Part shown: piece after piece, positions 48,107 through 62,592 of the stretch
Layout: each line of letters opens with the position of its first letter
Position numbering within the stretch: the first letter of the stretch is position 1
Origin: an uncultured Chloroflexia bacterium
GTDB lineage: Bacteria; Chloroflexota; Anaerolineae; Fen-1058
Assembly: GCA_963844815.1 (NCBI GenBank)
Contig: CAWJPR010000018.1
Location: forward strand, 462,498-526,497
Length of the DNA: 64,000 nt
Direction: 5' to 3'
Notes under the pieces: model-generated
Seen by the model: the letters and a program-made list of their open reading frames with translations, nothing else
The model's database searches: none
Told to the model about the DNA's origin: nothing
Translations under genes and position numbers: made by a program

Positions 48107-51100
48107 ATGACTCAAACCAACGAACCTGCAACGAATAAGCAACCCATCGGGGCCGTCATGGTCGTCGGCGGCGGCATCGCCGGGATGCAGTCCGCGCTCG
48201 ATCTGGCCGATCAGGGCTTCAAGGTGTATCTCGTCGAAGCTCAATCGGCCATCGGTGGACACATGGCGCAGCTCGACAAGACCTTCCCCACCAACGACTG
48301 CGCCATGTGCACCATTTCGCCGCGCCTGGTCGAGACGGGCCGGCATCCCAACATCACCTTGATGACCGACAGCGAAGTCCTCGACGTGCAGGGCCAGGTC
48401 GGCGATTTCAACGTGCGCGTGCGACATCATCCGCGCTACATCGATCTTGAAAAGTGCGTCGGCTGTGGCGATTGCGCCAAGGTCTGCCCCATTCTCATTC
48501 CCGACACGTTCAACGAGGGATTGGCGAAACGCCGCGCGGCCTACAAGTTGTATCCGCAGGCCGTGCCCAACGCTTACGCCATCGCCAAGCGCGGCATTGC
48601 CCCGTGCCGGGATGCCTGCCCCGCCGGCCAACGCGCGCAGGGTTATATCGCGCTGATCCGTGAAGGCCGCTGGAATGACGCGCTGCGCGTGATCAAGATG
48701 GACAATCCGTTCCCCGGCATCTGCGGGCGGATTTGCAATCATCGCTGCGAGACGGCTTGCAATCGCGGACAAGTTGACGAGCCGATCAATATCCGCGCGC
48801 TCAAGCGCTTCGTGACCGATAAAGTCTACGCGGAGCCACGCCAATCGGTGGAGCCGCTGCCCCGGAAGTTCGACCAGCGCGTCGCCATTATCGGCGCAGG
48901 GCCGTGCGGCTTGACGGCGGCGCAGGACCTGGTGCGGGCGGGCTTTGGCGTCACCGTCTTCGAAGCGATGCCGGTGGCGGGCGGCATGCTGCGCCTCGGC
49001 GTGCCGGAATACCGCCTGCCGACGGCCATCATCGAGCGTGAAGTGCAGGACATCGTCGATCTCGGCGTCGATCTGCAACTGAATCATCGCATCGACAATC
49101 TCGACGACATCTTCAGCGCAGGCTTCGATTCGGTGCTGATCGCCGTCGGCGCGCACGAGGGCATTCGCCTGCCCATCCCCGGCGCGAACCTCGACGGCGT
49201 GATCATCAATACGCATTTCTTGAGAGATGTGAGATTGGGCAAGTACACTGGTAACTTGGCAGATAGTAAATTGGCAGATGGTAAATTGGGCAATTCGCCC
49301 ATTACCAATTTACCAATCACCAATCTACCAACCGCCTTAGGCAAAAACGTGCTCGTCCTCGGCGGCGGCAATGTGGCCATCGACTGCGCGCGCAGCGCGG
49401 TGCGCCTGGGCCGCCATGTCGAGATGGCGTGCCTCGAAAGCGGCGACAAGGTTCCGGCGCATGCGTGGGAAGTGCAGGCCGCGCAGGAAGAAGGCATCGT
49501 CCTGCATGAGGGCCGTACCTTTGAGCGAGTTCTGAGCGACGATAACGGGCACGTGCGCGGCGTCGAGTGTATGCGCGTCGCCTCGTTCCATTTCGACGAG
49601 ATGGGACGCTTGAACGTCGAGAAAGTGCCGAACTCAACGCACGTGATCGAATGCGATACCGTGATCTTCTCGGTGGGCCAGCGCGCCGGTCTCGCCTTCA
49701 TTCCCGATGATGCCGGTGTGGGCTTGACGGGCCGCAAGCTGATCGCGGTGAATCCCAACACGCTGGCCGCAACGCGCGAAGGCGTATTCGCTGCGGGCGA
49801 TAGTGTCTCGGGCACGGCGTTTGTGATCGAGGCGGTGAACAGCGGCCACACCGCGGCCCGATCGATCATCCGCTATTTGCAGGGCGAGCATCTCGAGCCG
49901 CCGCATCGACCCGATCTGCCGGTCGTGAAGTCTGACGCGCGATGAGATCAACACGCGCATGGCGCGCGGCGAGATCAGCCGCCAGCCGCGCGTCCCCCTG
50001 CCCGAAGTGCCGGTCGCGCAGCGCATCGACAACTTCATCGAGGTCGAAGGCGGCTACGACGATCAATCAGCGCAGCTGGAAGCCGCTCGCTGCCTGGCCT
50101 GCGGCATCTGCTCGGAGTGCATGAGCTGCACGTTTGCGTGCGGCGTCAACGCGATCGATCACAACATGGTCGCGCGCGACGAAAGCGTGCGCGTGGGAGC
50201 CGTCGTGCTCGCGCCCGGTTATCAAGCCTATCGCGCCGAATTGTCCGAAGAATACGGTCTGGGCCGCTACCCGAACGTCGTCACGTCGCTGCAATTCGAG
50301 CGCCTGCTGTCGGCATCGGGACCAACGTTAGGGCACGTGCAGCGCCCATCGGATGCCAGGGGCGCGCAGAAGATCGCGTTTCTGCAATGCGTGGGCAGCC
50401 GCGACCCAGCGCACGATTACTGCTCGTCGGTGTGCTGCATGTACGCGGCCAAGCAAGCGATCATGGCCGTGGAGCACGCCAAGGCGGAAACGCTTCGCGA
50501 CGACGGCCCGCTGCACTGCCAGGTGTTCTTCATGGACACGCGCGCTTACAGTAAGGGTTACGAAGAATACTATCGGCGGGCGGAGAAGAAATACGGCGTG
50601 CAGTACACGCGCTGCCGCATCAGCGATTTGCGCGAGGACCCCGCCACGCACGATTTGATCCTGCGCTACTTCGACGAACAAGGCCAACTGCAGCGCGAGC
50701 GCTTCGATCTTGTCACGCTGTCGATCGGCATGGAGATTTCGCCCAAGGTGCGCGAGTTGGGGCTGCGGCTGGGCATCGAACTGGATGAGTACGGCTTCTG
50801 CCACACGGTGCAGTTCAATCCGCTCGAGACGAGCCGCGCGGGCATCTATGCCGTCGGGCCGTTCCGCGAGCCGAAGGACATCCCCGAATCGATCGTGGAA
50901 GCGAGCGGCGCGGCAGCCGCCGTTGCGGCGCGCCTTGGCGAGGCGCGCTTCACCTTGACGACGCGCAAAGAGTTTCCACCCGAACGTGATATCACGCAGG
51001 AAGAGCCGCGCGTGGGCGTGTTCGTGTGTCACTGCGGATCGAACATCGGCGGCTTCCTCGATGTGCCCGATGTGTCGGCGTATGCGAAGACCCTGCCGAA

Positions 51101-52871
51101 CGTCGTGCATGCCGAAAACAATCTTTACACCTGCTCGCAAGACAGCATCAAGCACATCATCGAGCGGGTGCAGGAACTCAATCTCAATCGCGTGGTCGTA
51201 GCGTCGTGCACGCCCTTGACGCACGAGCCGTTGTTCCAGGATGCGATTCATCAGGCAGGCCTGAATCCGTATTTGTTCGAGATGGCGAACATCCGCAATC
51301 AATGTTCGTGGGTGCATCCGGGCGATTGGGACGGCGCGACGGCGAAAGCGAAGACGCTGGTGCGCATGGCGGCGGCGCGCGCGGCTGAGCTCGAGCCGCT
51401 GCAGACCTCGCAAGTGCCGATCCAGCACGCGGCGTTGATCATTGGCGGCGGAGCGGCGGGCTTGAACGCCGCGTTGTCGCTGGCCGAGCAAGGTTTCCCG
51501 GTGCATCTGATCGAAAAGAGCGATCAGCCTGGCGGCAATCTGCGCCACCTGCATTTCCTGATTGGCGAGGAGCGCAGCCCGCAGGACTATCTGGCGGAAT
51601 TGGTCGATCGCGCCGCACATCACCCGCTGATCACCATTTACCTGCAAACGGAGTTGATCCAGACCGGCGGCTTCAAGGGCAACTTCACGAGCAAGGTGCG
51701 TGATGCGGCCGGCGCCCTGCAAGAGATACAGCACGGCGTGACCATTGTGGCGACGGGCGGCACGGAATACCGAGGTCGCGAGTATAGCTACGGCAAGCAT
51801 CCGGGCATCATGACCCAGTTGGAGTTTGAGGCGCTGCTAAGTGATATGACATCGTCATTGCGAGGAGCATCCTTGCGCGACGAAGCAATCCCCGATGTGG
51901 CAAAGGAGATTGCTTCGCGAAAAAATGCTCGCAATGACGTGGCTTCGGTGGTCATGATCCAGTGCGTCGGCCCGGGCGAGAAATTCTGCTCGCGCCTGTG
52001 CTGCTCGACGGCGCTCAAGAACGCCTTGCAGGTCAAGCAGCTCAATCCCCAGGCCGAAGTCACGATCCTTTATCGCGACATCCGCACCTACGGCTTCAAA
52101 GAGCGCCTGTACACCGCAGCGCGGCGCGCCGGCGTGCGCTTCATCCGCTTCGACTTCGATCACAAACCAACAGTTGACATCAGCGATCAGCCATCAGCCA
52201 TCAGCCATCAGCAAATCATCGTGCGCGTTCACGAGCCGATTCTGAACCGTGAGGTTGAATTGCGTCCTGATCTGCTCGTCCTCAGCACGCCGATCGTGCC
52301 GCAGAAGGACGCGCACCAGCTGGCCGCGCGCCTCAAAGTGCCGCTCGACGCCGACGGCTTCTTCCTCGAAGCGCATCCGAAATTGCGGCCGGTGGACTTC
52401 GCCTCCGACGGGCTGTTCATGGCGGGCGTGGCGCACTATCCCAAGTTCCTCGACGAGACGATCGCGCAGGCGCAGGCGGCCGCGGCGCGCGCGGCGATCA
52501 TTCTCTCGCAAGAGAGCGTGCTGACCAATGCGCGCGTGGCCGTGGTCGATAACACGAAGTGTGTGGGCTGTCTCACCTGTGTGCGCGCGTGCCCGTATGA
52601 CGTGCCGAAAGTCAAGATGAGCTTCACGGGCGTGGGCAATATCACCGGCGCGGCCTACATCGAAGCCGCCATGTGCCAGGGCTGCGGCACCTGCGCCGCC
52701 GAGTGCCCGGCCCAGGCGATCCAGTTGATGCACTATCGGGATGCGGAGATGCTGCCCAAGATCGACGCCTTGTTCGGGTTGCAGCCGGGAGTAGTCAGTA
52801 GTCAGATTTCAGAAGACAGTACGCAGTCGGGCACATACTGGCTAATGCCCAAGGAGAGCGAGCGTGCATAA
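48107..52871 (+). CDS. giant HdrA-family flavoprotein, copy 1: HdrA N-half + inserted GltD-like NAD(P)H oxidoreductase module (HdrL-like) + HdrA C-half, fused in-frame to a second complete HdrA; one apparent frameshift near 49930
   Basis: VMVVGGGIAGMQSALDLADQGF, TNDCAMC and CVGCGDCAKVCP (HdrA N-half). CRDACPAGQRAQGY...GICGRICNHRCETAC...IIGAGPCGLTAA (GltD-like). Then, in the ORF 49959 frame, ARCLACGICSECMSCTFAC...FLQCVGSRD...YCSSVCCMYAA (HdrA C-half). This is followed by VGVFVCHCGSNIGG, ANIRNQCSWVH, IIGGGAAGLNAAL, IQCVGPGEKFCSRLCCS and a C-terminal 2x[4Fe-4S] domain (complete second HdrA). Confidence 0.8.
51854..51938. repeat. family-A REP/MITE-like palindrome inserted IN-FRAME inside hdrA copy 1 (GTCATTGCGAGGAGCATCCTTGCGCGACGAAGCAATC ... 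GAGATTGCTTCGCGAAAAAATGCTCGCAATGAC)
   Basis: Encodes ...MTSSLRGASLRDEAIPDVAKEIASRKNARNDVAS... between conserved QLEFEALLSD and VVMIQCVGPGEKF. Confidence 0.75.
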
Positions 52872-53256
52872 GTTCAGGGAATTAAAAGTCTGGCAGCGAT
52901 CGATGGATTTGATAGTCGAAGTTTATCAGCTCACCCAGACTTTTCCGCAGGCGGAACAACTTGGACTGATCAGCCAGTGCGACGGGCAGCCGTCTCAATT
53001 TCGTTGAACATTGCTGAGGGTGCGGGCAGCGGCACCGATCCTGAATTTCGGTGCTTCTGGCGCATGGCGCTGCGTTCCTGTTACGAAGTGATGACCGGCC
53101 TGGAAATTGGCCACCGTTTGGGCTACTGCGACGATCGACGTGTGAATACCTTGATTCCAGAAGCGGACGAGATCGCTGCCATGATCGTTGGTCTTAGCCG
53201 CGGCCTATCCGAGAAGTAATCTGACTACTGACTTCTGACTACTGACTACTGGAGAC
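52795..53256. mobile_element. small cassette carrying the four-helix-bundle gene, flanked by inverted simple repeats (GTAGTCAGTAGTCAG / CTGACTACTGACTTCTGACTACTGACTACTGG), inserted at the 3' end of hdrA copy 1
   Basis: Inverted (CTGACTA)n-type arms at 52795-52809 and 53223-53255. The hdrA copy-1 ORF is extended by about 25 codons encoded by the left arm, relative to copy 2. Confidence 0.5.
52864..53219 (+). CDS. four-helix-bundle protein (TIGR02436-like, '23S rRNA intervening-sequence protein' family); apparent frameshift near 52975
   Basis: VHKFRELKVWQRSMDLIVEVYQLTQTFPQAEQLGLISQ, then in the next frame RRAAVSISLNIAEGAGSGTDPEFRCFWRMALRSCYEVMTGLEI...; GTG start overlaps the hdrA stop. Confidence 0.65.
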
Positions 53257-53260
53257 ACCT

Positions 53261-53719
53261 TTGAGCAACAATGGATTCGAACCGAACATCATAGCGTTCT
53301 GCTGTCACTACTGCGCGTACGCCGCCGCCGATCTGGCCGGGTCGATGCGCCTCGAATACCCGACGGCGGTGAAGATCGTCGAGCTGCCCTGCACCGGCAA
53401 ACTCGACGTGCTCTACGTCTTGCGCGCGTTCGAGGACGGCGCCGACGGCGTGCTGGTGGCGGGTTGACTGGAAGGCGAATGTCATTACCTGGAAGGTAAT
53501 CTCAACGCCCGCCGGCGAATTGAATACGCGCAGAAACTGTTGGAGCAGATCGGATTGCAGGGCCGCCGCGTCCAGATGATCAACCTGTCGTCGGCGATGG
53601 GCGGCCAGTTCGCGTTCTCGATCGCGGAATTGACCGCGGAGATCAAGCAGCTGGGGCCGAACCCATTGGGCATTAAAGACCTGGCAGGTTCTTCTGCGCC
53701 TGAAGGCGAAACTCGATAG
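53261..53719 (+). CDS. mvhD: MvhD-like protein (methyl-viologen-reducing hydrogenase delta subunit family; HdrA electron-transfer partner) with in-frame TGA (putative selenocysteine) at the conserved Cys of the AG[C/U]..G.CHY motif
   Basis: FCCHYCAYAAADLAG...VELPCTGKLDVLYVLRAFEDGADGVLVAG-TGA(53465-53467)-LEGECHYLEGNLNARRR...; the frame is conserved through the TGA. Confidence 0.75.
53474..53509 (+). promoter_or_regulatory. putative bacterial SECIS hairpin downstream of the mvhD UGA (copy 1)
   Basis: ggcg-aatgtc-attacc-tggaa-ggtaat-ctcaa-cgcc; the core gtcattacctggaaggtaatctcaacgc is nucleotide-identical in the paralogous copy. Confidence 0.5.
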
Positions 53720-53793
53720 ACTAACGTGTGATGTTGGCAAGCAAGACCAGACAGAGAGTGAAAACCTGCCAGGTCTACCCACAGAGGTAAAAG

Positions 53794-54189
53794 ATGGACA
53801 AGCAGCCGTACATCATCATCACCGACGACGATCCCGACATCATTGAGAACCTGGTTACCATTCTCGGCACCCGGCCCTATCGGCTGGGGACGGCGCGCGA
53901 TGGCAAGCAGTGCCTGGCGCTGATCAGACAGGAGCAGCCCGATCTGCTGATCCTCGACATGCTGATGCCGCGCATGGACGGCTGGGGCGTGATCCGCGAA
54001 CTGCGCAGCGATCCGTTGTATGCCGATTTGCCGATCATGGTGTTGACCACCGTCGTCGAAGACGCCAGCCGCCGCCGCTACGAACTGGAAGTCGGCATGG
54101 AGATGGACGTGCAGGACTACCTGCAGAAACCGGCCAAGCCCGCCGAGCTGCTGCAGCGTGTCGAGAAACTGCTGAAGGTCCATGCTTAA
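53794..54189 (+). CDS. response regulator, receiver domain only (CheY-like)
   Basis: IIITDDDPDI...LILDMLMPRMDGW...KP signature residues. Confidence 0.8.
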   Translation: MDKQPYIIITDDDPDIIENLVTILGTRPYRLGTARDGKQCLALIRQEQPDLLILDMLMPRMDGWGVIRELRSDPLYADLPIMVLTTVVEDASRRRYELEVGMEMDVQDYLQKPAKPAELLQRVEKLLKVHA

Positions 54190-55384
54190 CCCAGCGATCA
54201 CGTCCATCTCAATCCGAGTTGACCGCCTGCGCCGATCGGAAATCTTCAGCGAGCTGGCCGAGGCCGACCTGTTGGCTATCGCCGAGCTCTGCGCCGAGGA
54301 ACGCTACGACGAGGGTGAGGCGGTGCTGTCTGAAGGCGCGCCCGCCGCCGCGGTGTTCGTCGTCGAGCGCGGCAAACTCGCCCTGGAGAAGAAGATCCAG
54401 ATCGGGCGGCACTCGACGCCGCGCAATGCGACCATCGACTACGTCGAGCCGGGCAAGACGGCGGGATTCTCGGGGTTGGTGGCGCCGTTTGTCTATTCCA
54501 CATCCGCCGTCTGCCTGGAGCCGACGCGCGTCCTGCGCGTCGACGGCCCGGCGCTGCGCGCCTACCTCGCAGCGCATCCGGCCGCGGGCGTGAAAGTGTT
54601 CACGGCGGTAGCCGAATTGATCAGCGATCGCTATCGCCACTCGATCGATACCTTGACTTACTTTTTGTCGGTCGTGTCGCACGAACTCCGCTCGCCGCTG
54701 GCCGCGGTCGAGAATTATCTGCAGACGCTGCTGGGCGGCTACGCCGGCGAGCTCACCGACAAGCAGCAGCACATGATGACGCGCTGCGTGCTGCGGGTGA
54801 CCGATCTGCGCGGGCTGATCGGCGACGTGGTCGATCTGGCGCGCATGCGGCCCGAGCAGATTCAGGCCGACTTCGAATGGTTCGATCCCGGCGAGGTGGG
54901 CACCGAGTCGATCGAGGATGCGCGGTTGGCGGCCGCCGAAAAAGGGATTCACCTCAAGATCGAAGCGCCGCCGAAGTTCGAACCGATCGTCGGCGCGCGG
55001 CGGCGCATGCGCCAGGTGTTTACGAACCTGCTGAACAACGCGGTCAAGTATGCGCCGCCCGACAGCATCGTGACGATTCGCGCGTGGTACGCGCCGGACA
55101 CGCTGTATTTTGAAGTCGAGGACGAAGGTCCCGGGATTCCGGCCGAAGATGTGCCGCACGTTTTCGAGGAATTCTTTCGCTCCGAAAGCACGAGTGATAC
55201 GCCGGGCGTCGGTCTCGGCCTGTCAATCGCCCAGAAGATCGTCGCTGCGCACCACGGCGAAATCACTGTAAAGAGCGTGCATGGTTTTGGGGCCACAGGC
55301 ACCCGTTTCACCGTCACCATCCCGCGCAACTTGCAGACGCCGGAGATGCGGCGGCGCGAATGGATGATGACAGGCAATGAGTGA
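54182..55384 (+). CDS. sensor histidine kinase with an N-terminal cyclic-nucleotide-binding (cNMP/CAP-like) domain
   Basis: cNMP-like SEIFSELAEADLLAIAELCAEERYDEGEAVLSEG; H-box VSHELRSPL; N-box and G-boxes (NLLNNAVKYA, GVGLGLSI). Confidence 0.8.
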   Translation: MLNPAITSISIRVDRLRRSEIFSELAEADLLAIAELCAEERYDEGEAVLSEGAPAAAVFVVERGKLALEKKIQIGRHSTPRNATIDYVEPGKTAGFSGLVAPFVYSTSAVCLEPTRVLRVDGPALRAYLAAHPAAGVKVFTAVAELISDRYRHSIDTLTYFLSVVSHELRSPLAAVENYLQTLLGGYAGELTDKQQHMMTRCVLRVTDLRGLIGDVVDLARMRPEQIQADFEWFDPGEVGTESIEDARLAAAEKGIHLKIEAPPKFEPIVGARRRMRQVFTNLLNNAVKYAPPDSIVTIRAWYAPDTLYFEVEDEGPGIPAEDVPHVFEEFFRSESTSDTPGVGLGLSIAQKIVAAHHGEITVKSVHGFGATGTRFTVTIPRNLQTPEMRRREWMMTGNE

Positions 55385-55435
55385 CGAGTGATAAGTAACG
55401 AGTAATGGATTACGTATTACGCACTACTCGTTATC
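55377..55435. repeat. family-B repeat: AATGAGTGACGAGTGATAAGTAACGAGTAATGG ... CACTACTCGTTATC upstream of hdrL copy 2; supplies the histidine-kinase stop codon
   Basis: read directly. Confidence 0.65.
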
Positions 55436-55497
55436 ATAGATGAATCGACATGACTTAAGCCAGTGACACGCAATCAAATAAGCAGCCTATCGGCGCC

Positions 55498-58400
55498 GTG
55501 ATGGTCGTCGGCGGCGGCATCGCGGGGATGCAGGCCGCGCTCGATCTGGCCGATCAGGGCTTCAAGGTCTACCTCGTCGAGGAGAAATCGGCGATCGGCG
55601 GCCACATGGCGCAGCTCGATAAGACGTTCCCGACCAACGACTGCGCGATGTGCAACATCAGCCCGAAGTTGGTGGACGTGGGCCGCCATCTCAACATCGA
55701 GATTCTCACCGACACGGACGTGCTCGGCGTCACCGGACAGGCCGGCAATTTCACGGTGTCCGTGCGCCGCCGGCCGCGCTACGTCGACGTGGCGAAGTGT
55801 ATCGGCTGCGGCGACTGCGCGCAGGTGTGTCCGGTGTCGCTGCCCAACTTGTACGAAGAGCAGCTGAAGGATCGCAAGGCCGCGTATCGCTTGTACACGC
55901 AGGCCGTGCCCTCGGCCTATGCGATCGACAAACGCGGCGTCGCGCCGTGTCGCGATGCCTGTCCAGCGGGTCAGCGCGCGCAGGGTTACATCGCGTTGAT
56001 CGCGCAGGGGCGCTACCGCGAAGCGTTCCGCGTCATCAAAGAGGACAATCCGTTCCCCAGCGTCTGCGGGCGCACGTGCCACCATCCGTGCGAAGGGCAC
56101 TGCACGCGCGCCATGGTCGACGAAGCGGTCGGCATCATGTCGCTCAAGCGCTTCGTGATCGATCACGCCCTCGCCTACGGGCGCGAGAAGGTCGAGCCCG
56201 CGGCGCGCACGCGGCCCGCATGGATCGCCGTCGTCGGCGCGGGCCCGGCCGGCCTTACCGCCGCGCACGATCTGGCGAAGCTGGGCTACGGCGTCACCGT
56301 GTACGAAGCGCTGCCGGTAGCGGGCGGCATGATGCGCGTCGGCATCCCGGCGCACCGCCTGCCCAAAGGCGTGCTGCAGCAGGACATCGACGACATCCTG
56401 GCGTTGGGCGTCGTCCTCAAGACCAACTCTCCGGTCAAAGACCCGGCCGAGCTGCTCAAGCGTGGCTACAACGCGGTGTGCCTGGCGACGGGCATCTCGT
56501 CGCGCGATCAAGCGATCGGGATTGAAGGTGAAAACGCCGCGGGCGTCATCCCCGCTGCGACGTTCCTGCGCAAGGTCAATCTGGGCGAGCCGGTCACGAT
56601 CGGGGATCGCGTGGCCGTGATCGGCGGGGGCATCACGGCGCTGGATGCGGCCGCCGTCGCGCGCCGCCTGGGCGCCGAGGTTTACCTGGTGCTCGATCGG
56701 CCTCGCGGCGAGATTCCGGCCTACGAAGTGGAGATGAACGCGGTTGAAGCAGAGGGCATTCATCTCTTCGAGCGCACGACCGCGACGCGCATCCTGGCGC
56801 AGAATGGCAAAGTCACCGGCGTCGAGCTGGCGCAGACCGAAGGCGGCCTGACGACCGACGAGCGCGGCCGCCGCCGTCCGATGATCAAACCCGGCTCTGA
56901 ATTCACGTGCGAGGTCGATACCGTGATCGGCACGGTCGGCCAGTTCTCCGATCTGTCGTTCCTCGATCAGCGCTACGACGATCTCACGGTCGATAAGCAC
57001 ACGCTGGCGAGCGACATCCCCGGCCTGTTCGTGGTGGGCGGCCGCAAGACCGGCGCGAGCTATATCATCGAGGCGGTGGCGCTGGGGCATCGCGTCGCCG
57101 CGTCGATCGATCGTTACTTGCAGGGCCAGCCGCTGAAACACGCTGCGCCGCCCGCCCCGCCGGTCGTGAAATTCGCGCGCGAAGAGCTGGCGCAGAAAGT
57201 GACTGCGCGGCGAGATTCGTTTGCAGCCGCGCACGCAGCCGGCCCTGCTGCCGATGGAAGAGCGCGTGACCAGCTTCCGCGAAGTGGTGCTGGGGCTCAC
57301 CGAGCGGCAGGCGCGCGCCGAAGCGCAGCGCTGCCTGCAATGCGGCCTGTGCTCCGAATGCCTGGCGTGTGTCTATGCCTGCGGCGTCGACGCGATTGAT
57401 CACAACGCGGTCGCGCGCGAGGAGCAGATCGATGTCGGCGCCGTCATTCTCGCGCCGGGTTATCAGGCTTACCAGGCCGCCCTGTCACGCGAATACGGCT
57501 TCGGCCGTTATCCGAACGTGATCACGGCGCTGCAATTCGAGCGCTTGCTGTCGGCGTCCGGCCCGACCCTGGGGCATGTGCGCCGGCCGTCGGATCAACG
57601 TGAACCGCAGCGCGTCGCGTTCCTGCAGTGTGTCGGCTCGCGCGATCAGGCGCACGATTACTGCTCGGCGGTGTGCTGCATGTACGCGACGAAGGAAGCG
57701 GTCATCGCCAAAGAACACCAACCCGATCTGGACGTGCACGTCTTCATGATGGACATGCGCGCCTTCAGCAAAGGCTATTGGTCCTACTTCGAGCGCGCGC
57801 GCGATCAATACGGCGTGCACTACCATCGCTGCCGCGTCAGCGAACTGCACGAAGACCCAGCGACGCATAATCTGCTCATTCGATATCAGGGCGATCAGCA
57901 ATCTCGCGGGGATAGTGGGCACTCGGCACTCAGCATTCAGCATTCAGCAATCAGCACTCAAGAATTCGATCTCGTCGTGTTATCCGTCGGAATGGAAATC
58001 TCAGAGTCTGTTCGCGCGTTAGGCAAGCGCCTGGGCGTCGAACTCGACGAGTACGGCTTCTGCCACACGGTGCAATTCAACCCGATCGAAACGAGTCGTC
58101 CGGGCATCTATGCGGTCGGCCCGTTCCGCGAGCCGAAGGACATTCCCGAATCCGTCGTGGAGGCGAGCGGTGCAGCGGCGGCGAGCGCGGGCCTGCTGGC
58201 CGGCGCCCGCTGGTCCCTGACGCGCACCCGTGAGTACGCGGCCGAACGCGACGTCGCACATGAAGAACCGCGGATCGGCGTGTTCGTGTGCCACTGCGGA
58301 TCGAACATCGCCGGTTACCTCGACGTGCCTGCCGTGACCGAGTATGCGCGCGCGCTGCCGCACGTCGTCCACGCCGAAGACAAGCTGTATGCCTGCTCGC

Positions 58401-60180
58401 AGGATTCGATCAAGTTGATTACCGAGCGCGTGCAGGAACATCACCTCAACCGCGTGGTCGTCGCCAGCCTGCACGCCGCTGACGCATCAGCCCTTGTTCC
58501 AGGACAGCATCCGCAACGCCGGGTTGAATCCGTACCTGTTCGAGATGGCGAACATCCGCAATCAATGCTCGTGGGTGCACTCGCACGAACCGGATGTCGC
58601 CACCGAGAAAGCGCAGGACCTCGTGCGCATGTCCGTCGCGCGCGCGGCGCTGCTTCAACCTCAACACACGTTCACGGTGCCGGTCAAGCACGCGGCGCTG
58701 ATCGTCGGCGGCGGCGTGGCGGGCATGACGGCGGCACTCTCGTTAGCCGAGCAGGGCTTTCCCGTTCACTTGGTCGAGAAGGAAGCGGAGCTCGGCGGCA
58801 ATCTGCGGCAGGCGTTCCTGCCGTCCAACGGCAAAGAGCCGCAAATCATCCTGACGCAACTGGTTGATCAAGTTCAACACAACTCGCTCATCACCGTTCA
58901 TCTCGAAAGCCGGGTCGTGTCGACCGGCGGCTTTATGGGCAACTTCGAAAGCAAGATGCGTGATGCAAGAGGCATACTGCAGGAAGTGCAGCACGGCGTG
59001 ACAATTTTAGCCACCGGCGCCCAGGAATATCGCGGATCGGACTACGGTTTCGGCACGCACCCGAGGATTATCACGCAACAACAGTTTGAGAGAATGCTGA
59101 CCAAAGGGTGTCATTCCCCCCAGCGCGCCCCCGCTGAGAAGCAGCGGACAGGGCGTGAGGCGCGTAGCGCCGAAGAATCTCTACCGCCGACGAACAGCGC
59201 TACCGATCAGAGCCGAGATTCTTCGCTCCCCGCAAAGCGGGTCGCTCAGAATGACACGGCCAGAAATGAGCCGCTCGCCATTCCGAATTCCGAATTCCGA
59301 GTTCAGAATTCCGTCGTCATGATCCAGTGCGTCGGCCCGGCTGAGAAGTTCTGCAGCCGTATCTGCTGCGCCGAGGCGCTAAAGAATGCCATTGCACTGA
59401 AAGCGCAGCAGCCCGAGGCACAGGTTGTCATTCTCTACAAGGATATCCGCACCTATGGCTTCAAAGAGCGGCTCTATACAACTGCCCGCCAGCATGGCGT
59501 CATCTTCATGCGCTATGATGATAATCATCGGCCAGAGGTAGTAGTCAGCAATCAGCAGTCAGCAATCAGCAGTTCAGGCCTGGGATTCCATTCTGCAACG
59601 TTCCATCATCCTGCAACCCAATCTACTCGTCCTGTCAATGCCCGTGGTGCCACGCGACGACGCGCACGAGGTCGCCAAGTTGTTCAAGGTCTCGCTCGAC
59701 GCCGACGGTTTCTTCCTCGAAGCACACGTGAAATTGCGGCCGGTTGATTTCGCATCCGACGGCGTGTTCATGGCGGGCATGGCGCATTATCCCAAGCTGT
59801 TGGACGAGACGATGATTCAGGCGCAGGCGGCTGCCTCGCGCGCGGCGAGAGTGCTGAGCCACGAATCGCTCACGGCAGGCGGGCGCGTCGCCGTGGTGGA
59901 CGATGCGAAGTGCACCGGCTGCCTGACGTGCGTGCGCATCTGCCCCTTCGGCGTGCCGAAGATCAAAGCGAACTTGACCGGCGTGGGCCACATCGTCGGC
60001 GCGGCCTATATCGAAGCAGCCGTGTGCCAGGGCTGCGGCTCGTGCGTGGCCGAATGTCCTGCGCAGGCGATCCAGTTGATGCATTACACTGATGCGCAGA
60101 TGGTCGCAAAGATTCAGGCGCTGATGCGGCCGTCGGGCGGGTTTGTACCAGTCGATGAGATAGCGGCGAGTGGAAACTAA
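55498..60180 (+). CDS. giant HdrA/HdrL-like + HdrA fusion, copy 2 (same architecture as copy 1); three apparent frameshifts (about 57217, 58466, 59575) and a TAA at codon 3 of the ancestral start
   Basis: ORFs 55498-57399, 57221-58867, 58494-59747 and 59638-60180 align co-linearly with copy 1. Upstream in-frame ATG ACT TAA (55450-55458) corresponds to the ATG ACT CAA start of copy 1. Confidence 0.7.
59109..59256. repeat. family-A REP/MITE-like palindrome inserted IN-FRAME inside hdrA copy 2 at the homologous position (GTGTCATTCC...GAAGAATCTC ... GAGATTCTTCG...CAGAATGACAC)
   Basis: Encodes ...GCHSPQRAPAEKQRTGREARSAEESLPPTNSATDQSRDSSLPAKRVAQNDTARNE... followed by the tandem repeat cattccgaattccgaattccgagttcagaattccg (59278-59312). 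Confidence 0.75.
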
Positions 60181-60251
60181 CGCAGTGAAGCACTTGCCGT
60201 CTTAGCAGGTAAGTCCATCATTTGAAAGAGATAGCAGTGAGTAATCGCTAA

Positions 60252-60713
60252 ATGGATACAGCATCAAGTGCAGTTCAAACAAAACTGAATATCATCGCCT
60301 ACTGCTGTGAGCACTGCGCTTACGCCGCGGCCGATCTGGCGGGTGGATTGCGGATGCAATACCCGCCCGCGATCAAGATCGTGCAGATACCCTGCACGGG
60401 CCGCATGGATGTGCTGACCGTGTTGCGGGCCATCGAGGACGGCGCGGACGGCATCATGGTGGCGGGTTGACTGCCCGGCGACTGTCATTACCTGGAAGGT
60501 AATCTCAACGCAAAACGCCGGGTGGCCCATGTGCAGGATGTGCTGAAGAACATCGGGCTGGAGCCCGAGCGCGTGCAGATGTTCAACCTGTCCTCGGCAA
60601 TGGCGGGACGATTTGCCGAGGCGACGAAAGAGATGACGGAAAAGATTGAGGAGTTGGGCCCAAATCCATTGAGAGAAGAGATGACAAAGCGATCCACGAA
60701 TGAACACGAATGA
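60252..60713 (+). CDS. mvhD: MvhD-like protein, copy 2, with in-frame TGA (putative selenocysteine) at the same position
   Basis: YCCEHCAYAAADLAG...VQIPCTGRMDVLTVLRAIEDGADGIMVAG-TGA(60468-60470)-LPGDCHYLEGNLNAKRR... Confidence 0.75.
60475..60521 (+). promoter_or_regulatory. putative bacterial SECIS hairpin downstream of the mvhD UGA (copy 2)
   Basis: ccggcg-actgtc-attacc-tggaa-ggtaat-ctcaacgcaaaa-cgccgg. Confidence 0.5.
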
Positions 60714-60783
60714 ACACGAACAAAAAATCATTCGAGAAGATTCGTGGAGATTCGTGCGATCAGCCTTTAGCATTGAACGGAGG

Positions 60784-61473
60784 ATGAACATGATCGTAGC
60801 CGAACAGAAACCCCTGGCAGAAATCAAGACGCTGGTCGCCAACGCGCAGAAAGTGCTGGTGGTCGGGTGCGGCACGTGCGTAACGGTGTGCTTTGCGGGC
60901 GGCGCGCGTGAAGCCGCCATCACCGCCTCGTCGCTGCGCATGGCCACCAAGCTCGACGGCAGCGGCAAGGAGGTCGCCGACGTGACCGTGCAGCGCCAGT
61001 GCGAGTGGGAATACCTTGACGAGATCGCGCCGCAAGTCGGCGAGGTCGACGTCGTCCTTTCGCTGGGCTGCGGCATCGGCGTGCAGGCCATGGCCGAGCA
61101 TTTTCCCAACGCGTGGATCGTGCCGGGCCTCAACACCAGCTTCCTGGGCATGCCGACCGAGCAAGGGGTATGGGCCGAGCGCTGCGCCGCCTGCGGCGAT
61201 TGCATCCTCGGCCTGACGGGCGGCATCTGCCCGATCGCGCGCTGCTCCAAGTCGCTGCTCAACGGGCCGTGCGGCGGATCGGAGAACGGCCACTGCGAGA
61301 TCAATGCCGAGGTGCCGTGCGCCTGGCAGCTGATCTACGACCGCTTGAGCAGCATGGGCAAACTCGACCAGCTGCTGGAGATTCAGCCGCCCAAGAACTG
61401 GCGCACGGCGCGCGATGGCGGCCCGCGCAAAATCGTTCGGCCCGATCTGAGACTGGCTTCGGAAGAAGAATAA
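60784..61473 (+). CDS. metV: MetV (methylene-tetrahydrofolate reductase C-terminal-domain, zinc-ribbon protein; MetF partner)
   Basis: VVGCGTCVTVC...CAACGDCILGLTGGICPIARCSKSLLNGPCGGS..GHCE, hallmark of the MTHFR_C/MetV family; GGAGG RBS. Confidence 0.8.
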   Translation: MNMIVAEQKPLAEIKTLVANAQKVLVVGCGTCVTVCFAGGAREAAITASSLRMATKLDGSGKEVADVTVQRQCEWEYLDEIAPQVGEVDVVLSLGCGIGVQAMAEHFPNAWIVPGLNTSFLGMPTEQGVWAERCAACGDCILGLTGGICPIARCSKSLLNGPCGGSENGHCEINAEVPCAWQLIYDRLSSMGKLDQLLEIQPPKNWRTARDGGPRKIVRPDLRLASEEE

Positions 61474-61476
61474 TTC

Positions 61477-61546
61477 AATGCGGAACGTGGAATGCGGAGT
61501 GCGGAATACGCCATTCCGAGTTCCGAATTCCGCATTCCGAATTGAA
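61477..61546. repeat. imperfect palindrome built from (G)CGGAAT / ATTCCG units between metV and metF (hairpin; related to the tandem ATTCCGAATTCCG run inside hdrA copy 2)
   Basis: caatgcggaacgtggaatgcggagtgcggaatacgccattccgagttccgaattccgcattccgaattg. Confidence 0.65.
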
Positions 61547-61557
61547 CGGAGGAAACA

Positions 61558-62592
61558 ATGGCTCCACAGCCCAATGGCAACGGTTACCTGTCTGGATCAA
61601 ATCTGGAGAAGGTGCTCAAGAACGGCCACTTCGCCGTCACGGCCGAGCTCGGTCCGCCGCAGAGCGCCGATGGTGAGGTCATTCGCAAGAAAGCCAAACT
61701 GCTTAAAGGCAACTGCGACGCGGTGAACATCACCGACAACCAGACGGCCATCGTGCGCATGTCGAGCATCAGCGCGGGGACGATCGTGGTGCAGGAAGGG
61801 CTGGAGCCGATCATCCAGATGACCTGCCGCGATCGCAACCGGCTGGCGATACAGAGCGATCTGCTCGGCGCCTACGCGCTGGGCATGCGCAACCTGTTGT
61901 GCCTGTCGGGCGATCACCAGACGTTCGGCAATCATCCCGGCGCCAAGAACGTTTTTGACATGGACTCGATCCAGCTGGTGCAGATGGTGGCGGCGATGCG
62001 CGATCAGCACGTGTTCCAGAGCGGCGACGCCTTCAAGGGGCCGGAACCGCGCTTCTTCGTCGGCGCCGCCGAATCGCCCTTTGCCAACCCGGTCGAGTTT
62101 CGCCCCCTGCGGCTGGCCAAGAAAGTCAAAGCAGGCGCGAACTTCATCCAGACGCAGTTGATCTACGACATCGAAGCATTCACGGCGTTCATGGCGAAAG
62201 TGCGCGAGCTCGGCCTGCACGAGAAAGTCTACCTCCTGGCCGGAGTCGGCCCGTTGAAGAGCCCGATGATGGCGCGTCATATGAAAGACAACGTGCCGGG
62301 CCTGCGCATACCCGATCAGATCATCGCTCGGATGGAAGCCGCCGGCGCGCCGTGGGCCAGCAAGTCGAAAGACGAATTGACGAAGGAAGACAGAAAGGCC
62401 CGAATGATTGCCTGGCAGCATGAAGGGATCAAGATCTGCATCGAGCTGATCCAGCAGATCCGCGAGATCGAAGGCGTGGCCGGCGTGCACATCATGGCCA
62501 TCGAGTGGGAAGAGGCCGTGAAGCCGATCGTGGAAGGCGCGGGCCTGCTGCCCCGGCCGATCGTGACAGAGACGGTCGCAACGCTGACATGA
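61558..62592 (+). CDS. metF: methylenetetrahydrofolate reductase
   Basis: 344-aa MTHFR TIM barrel (…AVNITDNQTAIVRMSS…, …IQTQLIYD…). Confidence 0.85.
   Translation: MAPQPNGNGYLSGSNLEKVLKNGHFAVTAELGPPQSADGEVIRKKAKLLKGNCDAVNITDNQTAIVRMSSISAGTIVVQEGLEPIIQMTCRDRNRLAIQSDLLGAYALGMRNLLCLSGDHQTFGNHPGAKNVFDMDSIQLVQMVAAMRDQHVFQSGDAFKGPEPRFFVGAAESPFANPVEFRPLRLAKKVKAGANFIQTQLIYDIEAFTAFMAKVRELGLHEKVYLLAGVGPLKSPMMARHMKDNVPGLRIPDQIIARMEAAGAPWASKSKDELTKEDRKARMIAWQHEGIKICIELIQQIREIEGVAGVHIMAIEWEEAVKPIVEGAGLLPRPIVTETVATLT

What the first reader, a model, noticed from the sequence alone, without database searches (positions are those of the whole stretch)
52795..53256. Four-helix-bundle ('23S IVS-type') protein gene delivered as a mini-cassette flanked by inverted simple repeats at the end of hdrA copy 1
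GTAGTCAGTAGTCAG (52795-52809) and CTGACTACTGACTTCTGACTACTGACTACTGG (53223-53255) are inverted relative to each other and bracket only the 4HB gene. hdrA copy 1 ends with 25 extra codons (VVSSQISEDSTQSGTYWLMPKESERA) encoded by the left arm and cassette, which copy 2 lacks. Related (CAGYMAT)n runs also encode the variable linker inside both hdrA genes. TIGR02436-type proteins were first noted inside mobile rRNA intervening sequences, so a mobile context here is plausible, but the mechanism is unknown.
Basis: partly seen in the sequence, partly recalled or inferred. Interest (0 to 1): 0.6.

Follow-up and report, generated by a model that had tools for sequence, protein, structure and literature searches.

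The report
IVS-type four-helix-bundle gene cassette

Summary
(AGTAGTC)2.3 at 52790-52805 and (CTGACTA)4.4 at 53221-53251 are inverted and bracket one TIGR02436/PF05635 gene (52864-53219). That gene carries a -1 frameshift here.

The insertion is not recent. Relatives at 75-87% protein identity carry the gene at the same hdrA|mvhD junction with the same arms. Most outgroups have a 56-nt junction with neither. dN/dS is about 0.1. The window's lineage is decaying: a frameshift here, a 179-nt deletion in near-identical strains, 8 codons left in L100, only a hairpin in L096/97.

The architecture is family-wide. In 76 loci from over ten phyla, 7-nt periodicity appears only just before the start and just after the stop. 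In 36 of 44 two-armed loci, the downstream unit is the reverse complement of the upstream one. Examples include the XCC0516 (PDB 2GSC) orthologue in Xanthomonas and a filled/empty pair in Nostoc and Calothrix.

The closest known relative is the Coxiella 23S rRNA IVS: an S23p ORF, a terminal stem, variable heptamers and RNase III excision. I read this as an IVS-type cassette in an mRNA operon. RNA processing and the mode of movement remain inferred. I found no paper stating the general rule.

The parts
49959..52871 (+). hdrA copy 1. Its last 26 codons run through the left arm and the spacer, and its stop TAA (52869-52871) overlaps the 4HB start.
   Evidence: ORF list. HdrA-type NCBIfam and Pfam hits. 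Comparison of HdrA tails across 80 relatives.
52790..52805 (.). Left arm: (AGTAGTC)2.3. Degenerate heptamers (AGATTTC AGAAGAC AGTACGC) continue to about 52826.
   Evidence: TRF. Inverted-repeat pair I1. Pairs with 53234-53250 at probability 0.99 or higher. Copy number differs in L001, L003, L004 and L094.
52806..52863 (+). Spacer between the left arm and the gene. It holds degenerate units, the Shine-Dalgarno AAGGAG (52851-52856), and the last codons of hdrA.
   Evidence: Sequence. AAGGAGA...GTGCATAAG is conserved in L001, L003 and L004. Whether part of it is the ancestral HdrA tail is unresolved.
52864..53219 (+). Four-helix-bundle (TIGR02436/PF05635, S23p/Avd-like) gene, GTG start. It has a -1 frameshift between 52977 and 52978 and substitutions at two near-invariant positions (R64C, L66W).
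   Evidence: Alignment A1. PDB 2GSC at 5e-19. Intact orthologues in L001, L003, L004 and L099 with dN/dS 0.08-0.14.
53221..53251 (.). Right arm: (CTGACTA)4.4. It starts 1 nt after the 4HB stop, and its last unit runs into the mvhD Shine-Dalgarno.
   Evidence: TRF score 55.. Conserved position with variable copy number in relatives.
53251..53263 (+). mvhD translation-initiation region: GGAG (53251-53254) and the TTG start (53261-53263), directly abutting the base of the arm helix.
   Evidence: Sequence. ORF list. CTGGAGAC-N6-TTGAGC is conserved in L001, L003, L004, L100 and L103.
53261..53719 (+). mvhD (FlpD/VhuD-like) copy 1, downstream neighbour, with an in-frame TGA at 53465-53467.
   Evidence: PF02662 at 6e-47 and NF045873. 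Relatives' ORFs are all called at 68 aa.

Best explanation
The segment 52790-53251 is an IVS-type cassette. It is a small four-helix-bundle gene (S23p/XCC0516/Avd-like) with its own ribosome-binding site, enclosed by two arms of the same tandem heptamer in opposite orientation. It lies between hdrA and mvhD of a MetFV-HdrA-MvhD-type operon.

Shown:
- The ancestor of a small clade (closest named relative Ardenticatenaceae, Chloroflexota) acquired it once at a junction that elsewhere is 56 nt with overlapping stop and start.
- It has been inherited vertically under purifying selection.
- In the window's lineage it is decaying.
- The arms change by whole-unit gain and loss yet stay complementary.
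- This gene-plus-inverted-heptamer-arms layout is the norm for the whole protein family across phyla.

Inferred:
- In the operon transcript the arms form a helix of 17 perfect base pairs, about 30 bp with the imperfect extension, that closes off the inserted ORF. This matches the Coxiella 23S rRNA IVS, where RNase III cuts the equivalent stem. The helix would be the feature that lets such a gene sit inside essential transcripts (rRNA, accBC, nrdAB, cas, hdr) by being processed out or structurally insulated.
- Arm complementarity is kept at the DNA level, by slippage plus template switching or conversion between arms.
- The cassette moves or is lost by recombination involving the arms, leaving gene-less hairpins behind.
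For: Identity of the gene.

Arms and helix. The MFE and centroid structures of window 52770-53275 and of L004 both close with the arm helix. Pair probabilities are 0.99 or higher over 17 bp.

Same site and same arms, with different unit numbers, in L001-L004 and L099.

Absence from most relatives, the ancestral tail GF[IV]PxES[IV]EV and the overlapping stop/start. A single cassette clade in the NJ tree.

dN/dS of 0.08-0.14.

Decay series: frameshift in the window, a 179-nt deletion in L094/95, 8 codons left in L100, hairpin only in L096/97.

Family-wide rule:
- Period-7 autocorrelation is 0.38 upstream and 0.47 downstream against a 0.25 background, and only within about 100 nt of the gene ends. 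There is no signal at periods 5, 6, 8 or 9.
- 44 of 76 loci have arrays on both sides. In 36 of these 44 the arrays are reverse complements within 1 mismatch, while direct comparison gives 3-5 mismatches.
- About two-thirds of loci have an inverted-repeat score above every shuffle.
- The typical distance between arms is 364-511 nt.

Independent cases:
- Non-orthologous contexts L005-L013.
- L168, a divergent PF05635 gene found only through its arms.
- Nostoc filled site versus Calothrix empty site.
- X. campestris XCC0516 orthologue between accB and accC.
- A viral-contig copy, L180.

Literature:
- The Coxiella IVS is a 428-nt selfish element with a 28-bp terminal stem, RNase III excision, a decaying S23p ORF and 2-3 variable GACAGAT heptamers next to the cleavage site (PMC4990558).
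- 23S_rRNA_IVP genes have been seen wedged inside cas operons (PMC3936711).
Against: RNA processing was not shown here.

The hdrA stop codon lies inside the closed loop, in the window and also in L003, L004 and L100. Cutting the stem would therefore leave hdrA mRNA without a stop.

Mismatches between arms show no wobble bias: 46 G:U-type against 45 A:C-type. Nothing therefore points specifically to selection on the sense RNA.

Strong purifying selection on the protein does not fit a purely junk or selfish ORF.

Gene-less heptamer hairpins with other units occur at the same junction in relatives and elsewhere in the window. Near 4HB cassettes the gene-less arrays share the cassette's unit, and the XCC0516 arms use the genome's dominant GGGAATC unit (PMC4692102). 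The arms may therefore be a host-wide or trans-generated feature rather than cargo of the cassette.

No recombinase, transposase or reverse transcriptase was found in the ORFs scanned around the cassette (the hdr/mvhD/regulator block, about 48.1-57.4 kb, plus ten ORFs from 35.9-47.4 kb and 60.8-63.2 kb), and there is no clear target-site duplication.

The 58-nt spacer may be native hdrA sequence, which would mean that arm, gene and arm were not inserted as one piece.
Confidence: 0.6

Rival explanations
1. The 4HB protein is itself the trans-acting factor that creates, spreads or maintains heptamer hairpins. On this view the gene-with-arms unit is the autonomous form and gene-less hairpins are its non-autonomous derivatives. 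The heptamer sequence would be set by the protein variant.
For: Gene-less arrays next to cassettes share the cassette's unit in L015, L020, L021, L023, L054, L088 and L091. The XCC0516 arms are the GGGAATC unit that occurs at about 186 sites in X. campestris (PMC4692102). Arm-unit distance tracks protein distance (Mantel p about 0.001; 60% of close protein pairs against 2-4% of distant pairs have units within 1 mismatch). This includes the cross-phylum pair L015/L016. The protein is under purifying selection. The family is related to Avd, which works with a polymerase on nucleic acid.
Against: The protein-unit correlation can equally come from shared ancestry of the gene and its arms, or from relatedness of the hosts. 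This window's genome uses several different units: TAGTCAG, ATTCCGA, CATCAGC and a 10-mer. No polymerase or nuclease partner is encoded nearby. No biochemical activity is known for the family.
Confidence: 0.15
2. It is a domesticated operon part. The arms are a long-range RNA switch that restores translational coupling of hdrA to mvhD across the insertion, and the 4HB protein serves the host.
For: In the ancestral state, hdrA stop and mvhD start overlap. The left arm lies inside the hdrA reading frame and the right arm abuts the mvhD Shine-Dalgarno in all orthologues. In the window, the predicted helix extends outward over the mvhD start. The hdrA stop overlaps the 4HB start as GTGCATAA in the window, L003, L004 and L100. 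dN/dS is about 0.1.
Against: The outward pairing over the mvhD start is not reproduced in L004. The gene is repeatedly lost or broken in close relatives with no sign of compensation. The same architecture occurs in many unrelated contexts, including one on the strand opposite to nrdAB. A locus-specific coupling role therefore cannot be the general explanation.
Confidence: 0.12
3. It is a coincidence of generic simple repeats. Heptanucleotide slippage arrays are common in this genome and merely happen to flank a small gene.
For: At least eight heptamer arrays are in the window, several of them inside hdrA genes. Heptamers are the commonest 5-11 nt repeat class in many bacteria (reviewed in PMC4679880 and PMC4692102).
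Against: The arms are reverse complements of each other. The CTGACTA unit occurs nowhere else in the window except in one related run. The arrangement is conserved in all orthologues and recurs in the family across phyla. In 76 loci, 7-nt periodicity is confined to the gene's two ends.
Confidence: 0.05
4. It is an integron-like or transposon-like cassette moved by a site-specific recombinase or transposase encoded elsewhere.
For: Some copies have a full hairpin on each side of the gene (L001/L099) or a hairpin on one side (L016, L180). This resembles attC-ORF-attC. Direct repeats of a hairpin would allow excision as a circle and would leave a solo hairpin.
Against: No integrase or transposase was found in the ORFs scanned around the cassette, which cover about 48.1-57.4 kb plus ten ORFs elsewhere in the window rather than the whole 64 kb, or in the loci inspected. 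The arms are tandem heptamers whose sequence differs between genomes, unlike attC sites or the terminal repeats of one transposon family. No clear target duplication was seen.
Confidence: 0.05

Closest known systems
Coxiella burnetii 23S rRNA intervening sequence (IVS) with the S23p ORF (Afseth 1995; Warrier et al. 2016, PMC4990558)
   Same: The size is about the same: 428 nt against 462 nt here. Both have terminal inverted repeats forming a long stem, an S23p-family ORF with its own SD in the loop, and tandem heptamers in the 5' part whose number differs between strains. In both, the ORF is decaying, and acquisition was horizontal followed by vertical inheritance.
   Different: The host transcript here is a protein-coding operon, not rRNA helix 45. 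The left arm is translated as part of hdrA. RNase III excision is shown for Coxiella and only inferred here. Here the orthologous protein is under purifying selection in most lineages.
XCC0516 of Xanthomonas campestris (PDB 2GSC) and the B. thetaiotaomicron protein 2RLD: pentameric four-helix-bundle proteins of unknown function
   Same: Same protein family (5e-19 and 1.2e-30). The XCC0516 orthologue is likewise wedged into an operon (accB|accC) between inverted heptamer arms.
   Different: The arm unit is GGGAATC-type rather than TAGTCAG. The structures give no function.
bAvd, the accessory protein of diversity-generating retroelements
   Same: Distant sequence similarity (PHROG 3206, 1.6e-5) and the same fold family.
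   Different: No reverse transcriptase and no template/variable repeat pair are near the gene.
Unexplained prokaryotic heptanucleotide repeats: cyanobacterial STRR, Xanthomonas/Nostoc GGGAATC/GGGGAYT (PMC4692102), Beggiatoaceae TAACTGA (PMC4679880)
   Same: All are imperfect tandem 7-nt units, mostly intergenic, with strain-variable copy number and often in convergent (hairpin-forming) pairs. The arms of the XCC0516 orthologue and of the Nostoc plasmid copy belong to these repeat families.
   Different: Those papers do not connect the repeats with 4HB genes. Most such repeats have no gene between them.
Integron gene cassettes (attC) and REP/BIME-type palindromes
   Same: All involve a small promoter-less ORF or an intergenic hairpin inside operons. 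Some copies show a hairpin-ORF-hairpin layout.
   Different: No integrase was found in the ORFs scanned around the cassette. The arms are tandem arrays on both sides of the gene, and their sequence is not conserved between genomes.

Membership tests
TIGR02436 / PF05635 four-helix-bundle (23S rRNA IVS protein, S23p) | Profile score above the curated cut-off | tested here: met
   113.8 bits against a cut-off of 24, and 118.8 bits against 33.8, using the ORF repaired by one base.
TIGR02436 / PF05635 four-helix-bundle (23S rRNA IVS protein, S23p) | Intact ORF of about 110-130 codons | tested here: not met
   A -1 frameshift lies between 52977 and 52978. tblastn splits the match into two frames. 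Orthologues are intact.
TIGR02436 / PF05635 four-helix-bundle (23S rRNA IVS protein, S23p) | Conserved RxxxSxxxNxxE motif (Zhang & Ye 2013) and homology to the solved pentamer XCC0516 | tested here: met
   R41, S45, N49 and E52 are present just after the frameshift. 2GSC matches at 5e-19.
rRNA intervening sequence (IVS) element | Inserted in a helix of 23S or 16S rRNA | tested here: not met
   It lies between hdrA and mvhD coding sequences. There is no rRNA or other Rfam match in 52000-62000.
rRNA intervening sequence (IVS) element | Terminal inverted repeats forming a long stem that encloses the ORF | tested here: met
   A 17-bp perfect core, about 30 bp with extensions. It appears in the MFE and centroid structures with pair probability 0.99 or higher.
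rRNA intervening sequence (IVS) element | Tandem heptamers in the 5' part with strain-variable copy number (Coxiella) | tested here: met
   against PMC4990558.
rRNA intervening sequence (IVS) element | Excision from the transcript by RNase III | not testable with these tools
   No transcript data. The helix length fits an RNase III substrate, but the hdrA stop lies inside the loop.
Diversity-generating retroelement (Avd module) | Adjacent reverse transcriptase and a template/variable repeat pair | tested here: not met
   The neighbours are hdrA, mvhD, a response regulator and a histidine kinase. There are no long direct repeats around the gene. No RT was found among the further ORFs scanned.
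Prokaryotic heptanucleotide simple repeats (STRR-like) | Imperfect tandem 7-nt units with copy number varying between strains | tested here: met
   TRF period 7. Unit numbers differ among the window, L001, L003, L004 and L094.
Integron gene cassette | attC recombination site and an integron integrase | tested here: not met
   The arms are tandem heptamers on both sides. No integrase was found among the ORFs scanned. Only part of the window was scanned.
Transposon / MITE with terminal inverted repeats | Transposase, or copies with identical ends, and a target-site duplication | tested here: inconclusive
   No transposase nearby. The filled/empty comparison in Nostoc and Calothrix allows at most a TTAG duplication, at only 85% flank identity.

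The most novel reading that the evidence does not exclude
The four-helix-bundle (S23p/XCC0516/Avd-like) proteins, over 21,000 clusters at 50% identity, may be the missing factor behind the long-unexplained excess of heptanucleotide repeats in prokaryotes. These include cyanobacterial STRRs, the Xanthomonas GGGAATC 'quadruplex' repeats, the Beggiatoa TAACTGA repeats and rRNA IVS stems. On this reading the gene between inverted heptamer arms is the autonomous form of an element, gene-less heptamer hairpins are its derivatives or targets, and the protein variant specifies the heptamer.
Probability: 0.15. Interest if true: 0.85.

Novelty: new variant of a known kind. Interest (0 to 1): 0.65.

Why it matters
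The copy in this window is an old, decaying insertion and is unremarkable in itself. What matters is what it reveals.

A very large protein family of unknown function has two solved structures and is annotated in thousands of genomes. It is almost always packaged between inverted runs of a genome-specific heptamer. That is the same design as the classic rRNA intervening sequences.

This ties together several loose ends:
- why these genes can sit inside essential transcripts such as rRNA, accBC, nrdAB, cas operons and hdr operons;
- where some intergenic heptamer hairpins come from;
- possibly why heptamers dominate bacterial simple repeats.

It also gives a practical rule: inverted heptamer arms 360-520 nt apart predict a 4HB gene. 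That rule found a divergent copy in L168 that the sequence search had missed. The model organisms Xanthomonas campestris and Nostoc offer direct experimental tests. Heptamer slippage also appears to break or restore reading frames in the neighbouring hdrA genes.

Tried and rejected
- Three-frame stop idea. Heptamers carrying a stop triplet would close all frames, but the stop content of upstream units (0.63) is not above the composition-matched shuffle (0.56 +/- 0.06). Dropped.
- Wobble test for an RNA-level stem. G:U-type and A:C-type mismatches are equal at 46 and 45. No support either way.
- Methylation or basecalling artefact. The 4HB and first hdrA2 frameshifts both hit CAGCTG-like sites, but CAGCTG is not depleted (26 sites). 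Unresolved, not supported.
- Sequestration of the mvhD start by outward extension of the stem. Predicted in the window but not in L004. Not conserved.
- DGR, defence system or known RNA. No RT or TR/VR pair, no PADLOC hit, no Rfam family.
- Terminator or promoter in the arms. None found.
- Homology of the 58-nt spacer to the ancestral HdrA tail. There is a 15/20 match to L104, but it is confounded by the Shine-Dalgarno. Left open.
- Duplex-energy cross-matching of arms between loci. A locus's own downstream arm is the best partner in 18 of 76 loci. This supports the rule, but GC content confounds the energies.
- Literature searches for a statement of the general rule found none.
- Viral contigs hold only two relatives of this subfamily, so phages are not an obvious vector.
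Full report
**1. The observation**

Reading the sequence and running Tandem Repeats Finder shows (AGTAGTC)2.3 at 52790-52805 and (CTGACTA)4.4 at 53221-53251. The two runs are inverted relative to each other, with 30-nt arms at 87% complementarity. The unit is far commoner than chance: 9 matches against 0.41 expected, and 0 of 100 shuffles reach 9.

Between the arms lies a single gene. As written it is two overlapping ORFs, 52864-53007 and 52977-53219. tblastn with a repaired protein shows the two halves in different frames. One C is missing between 52977 and 52978, where the orthologues read CAGCTG. With that base restored, the protein scores TIGR02436 at 4e-33 and PF05635 at 1.5e-34. It matches the solved pentameric four-helix bundle XCC0516 (2GSC, 5e-19) and, weakly, the Avd protein of DGRs.

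hdrA copy 1 (49959-52871) does read through the left arm. Its stop overlaps the GTG start of the small gene in the sequence GTGCATAA. The right arm begins one base after the small gene's stop, and its last unit runs into the Shine-Dalgarno of mvhD (TTG start at 53261).

**2. The same locus in relatives**

A protein search and contig look-ups found the gene at 75-87% identity in four other contigs. In each it lies between hdrA and mvhD, flanked by TAGTCAG-type arrays on the left and CTGACTA-type arrays on the right. Unit numbers differ. In L001/L099 each flank is a complete hairpin of the two orientations.

A metagenome scan with the HdrA C-terminus gave 80 junctions. Most have a 56-nt junction in which HdrA ends ...GF[IV]PxES[IV]EV[RK] and its stop overlaps the mvhD ATG. 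These have no gene and no repeats.

A neighbour-joining tree of the flanking coding sequence puts all gene-bearing contigs in one clade. Within that clade there is a graded series of decay:
- intact genes (L001, L003, L004, L099);
- the window's frameshift, plus substitutions at two near-invariant residues (R64C, L66W);
- a 179-nt internal deletion in L094/L095, whose flanks are 96-100% identical to the window;
- only the first eight codons (MHKFRELK) between retained arms in L100;
- only a degenerate TAGTC/GACTA hairpin in L096/L097.

Among intact orthologues dN/dS is 0.08-0.14, with dS of 0.7-1.7. The insertion is therefore old and inherited vertically. It has been under purifying selection for most of that time and is being lost in the window's lineage. 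The frameshift could still be a sequencing error. The two unusual substitutions and the deletion in the sister strains argue that the decay is real.

**3. The architecture belongs to the family, not to the locus**

Related 4HB genes in unrelated contexts carry the same kind of arms:
- next to aroA (L005-7);
- between a PLD-like and a HerA-like gene (L012/13);
- together with an Nmad2 gene inside a different hdrA-like operon (L008-11).

A genome scan with a family alignment returned 80 loci. They come from Bacteroidota, Acidobacteriota, Planctomycetota, Nitrospirota, Omnitrophota, Desulfobacterota, Gemmatimonadota, Cyanobacteria, CPR and others.

I aligned these loci on the gene's start and stop. 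The fraction of positions identical to the base 7 nt away rises from a 0.25 background to 0.38 in the 100 nt before the start, and to 0.47 in the 50 nt after the stop. It rises nowhere else within +/-1 kb. Periods 5, 6, 8 and 9 show nothing.

Of 76 loci with sufficient flanking sequence, 52 have an upstream array, 54 a downstream array and 44 both. In 36 of those 44, the downstream unit is the reverse complement of the upstream unit within one mismatch. Compared in direct orientation, the units differ at 3-5 positions.

The unit itself differs from genome to genome: AGTATCA, AGATTTG, AGCTGTC, GCAGTGA and others. The upstream arm is C-poor in the gene's orientation. The distance between arms is typically 364-511 nt.

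The rule worked in reverse as well. A pair of (GAAGGAT)n/(CTTCATC)n arms 369 nt apart in L168, a locus fetched for its hdrA gene, encloses a divergent PF05635 gene (4e-15) that my sequence search had missed.

Three further cases:
- A Nostoc edaphicum plasmid carries the gene with (GGGAGTA)8/(CCCTACT)4 arms between nrdB and nrdA. The homologous Calothrix plasmid has a 20-nt spacer with neither gene nor arms.
- The X. campestris orthologue of the crystallised XCC0516 sits between accB and accC, with GGGAATC-type arms.
- A viral-contig copy has the same design.

The family is very large: 21,323 clusters at 50% identity with E of 1e-3 or better.

**4. What is known**

The closest described object is the 23S rRNA intervening sequence. 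Warrier et al. (PMC4990558) describe the Coxiella IVS as a 428-nt selfish element with these features:
- a 28-bp stem made by terminal inverted repeats;
- excision by RNase III;
- an S23p ORF that is degenerating;
- two or three GACAGAT heptamers upstream of the ORF, whose number differs between strains, with the 5' cleavage site at the first repeat.

Zhang and Ye noted 23S_rRNA_IVP genes inserted within cas operons (PMC3936711). Heptamer repeats have been described as unexplained features in Xanthomonas and Nostoc (PMC4692102, about 70 convergent pairs), in Beggiatoaceae, cyanobacteria and Bacteroidetes (PMC4679880), and as cyanobacterial STRRs. None of these papers links the repeats to 4HB genes. 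Six literature searches found no statement of the general rule. That is absence from the searchable library, not proof of novelty.

**5. How it most likely works**

Shown: the arms are predicted to pair in the transcript. The minimum-energy and centroid structures of 52770-53275 both close with the arm helix. That helix has 17 perfect pairs at probability 0.99 or higher, plus imperfect extensions. L004 gives the same result.

Inferred by homology with the IVS: this helix is what lets the gene reside inside essential transcripts, either as an RNase III site or as a structural insulator.

Several results argue for caution:
- The hdrA stop lies inside the loop, so a cut in the stem would strand hdrA without a stop codon.
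- Mismatches between arms show no wobble bias (46 against 45). Complementarity therefore looks as if it is maintained at the DNA level, for example by unit slippage plus template switching or conversion between arms.
- Gene-less heptamer hairpins exist at this junction with unrelated units in L098, L101, L144 and L149. They also occur in the window at 61477-61543, and as 10-mers at 60695-60756.
- Near cassettes, gene-less arrays share the cassette's unit.
- Arm units track protein similarity (Mantel p about 0.001), including one cross-phylum pair.

The last two points fit either co-inheritance of gene and arms or a protein that specifies the repeat. How the cassette moves is unknown. No recombinase, transposase or RT was found among the ORFs scanned, which cover the region around the cassette and part of the rest of the window.

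Copies with a full hairpin on each side (L001; partly L016 and L180) would allow loss by recombination, leaving a solo hairpin. They would also allow gain by the reverse reaction.

One further hint of exchange: between the window and L094/95 the flanks are 96-100% identical, but the cassette interior is only 72-85% identical, and the step in identity falls at the arms. A strain-chimeric assembly at the repeats could mimic this, although two independent samples agree.

**6. Verdict**

The element does not meet the defining location of an rRNA IVS, so I file it as a new variant of that known kind. It exposes an apparently undescribed family-wide architecture that deserves a proper census and a simple RNase III experiment.

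Noticed in passing
53465-53467 and 60468-60470: Both mvhD copies have an in-frame TGA at the Cys position of the VAG[C]xxGxCHY motif. About 19 nt downstream of each is the same 7-bp hairpin (AUUACCU GGA AGGUAAU). Relatives' FlpD ORFs are all called at 68 aa. The best NCBIfam hit is the selenoprotein VhuD. This is probably a selenocysteine codon.
   Followed up: partly
57221-60180: hdrA copy 2 is split over three frames. There is an extra C near 58468-58470 (AGC-C-TGC against AGC TGC in copy 1). There is also a +1 shift inside the heptamer array 59543-59573, where removing one 7-nt unit restores the frame. The cause could be slippage-driven inactivation, phase-like variation or assembly error in the repeat.
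   Followed up: partly
52977/52978 and ~58468: The 4HB frameshift and the first hdrA2 frameshift both fall in a CAGCTG-like site, one base lost and one gained. CAGCTG is not depleted in the window (26 sites), so a methylation or basecalling artefact is not supported. The coincidence is unexplained.
   Followed up: partly
61477-61543 and 60695-60756: Two gene-less hairpins are built from inverted tandem repeats. One uses heptamers AATGCGG/ATTCCGA between metV and metF (z = -5.5). The other uses 10-mers CACGAATGAA/ATTCGTGAAG between mvhD2 and metV (z = -5.0). A relative (L168) has a 4HB cassette at the mvhD|metV junction.
   Followed up: partly
52179-52212, 57918-57960, 59280-59311, 59545-59571: Heptamer arrays are translated in-frame inside variable linkers of both hdrA genes. 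In the relative L149, the in-gene array is the reverse complement of the junction array 575 nt downstream, so together they bracket the C-terminal ferredoxin domain.
   Followed up: partly
51853-51939 and 59171-59225: Nested palindromes of about 55-90 nt (for example CGTCATTGCGAG...CTCGCAATGACG enclosing CGAAGCAATCCCC...GGAGATTGCTTCG) are translated inside both hdrA genes. They look like small hairpin elements tolerated in a protein linker.
   Followed up: no
whole window: CGATCG occurs 129 times and GATC 641 times in 64 kb, far more often than other 6-mer palindromes of similar composition. GGTACC and CCTAGG are absent.
   Followed up: no
L008:1797-2895 (also L009-L011): A two-gene cassette of Nmad2 (PF18753, 5e-54) followed by a 4HB gene lies between (GTCAGTA)n and (CTGACTA)n arms 991 nt apart. 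It is inserted between two HdrA-like genes of an unrelated hdr operon.
   Followed up: partly
window 52300-53720 against L094:319-1600: The flanking hdrA and mvhD are 96-100% identical between the window and L094/L095. The left flank and the 4HB remnants are only 72-85% identical, and the change occurs at the two arms. This suggests either cassette allele exchange or chimeric assembly.
   Followed up: partly
48107-49945 / 49959-52871 and 55498-57399 / 57221-60180, 60790-62592: The window carries two tandem sets of a GltD-like NAD(P)H oxidoreductase, hdrA and mvhD. They are separated by a response regulator and a cNMP-binding histidine kinase, and followed by metV (PF12225) and metF. This is a duplicated MetFV-HdrA-MvhD-type module.
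   Followed up: partly
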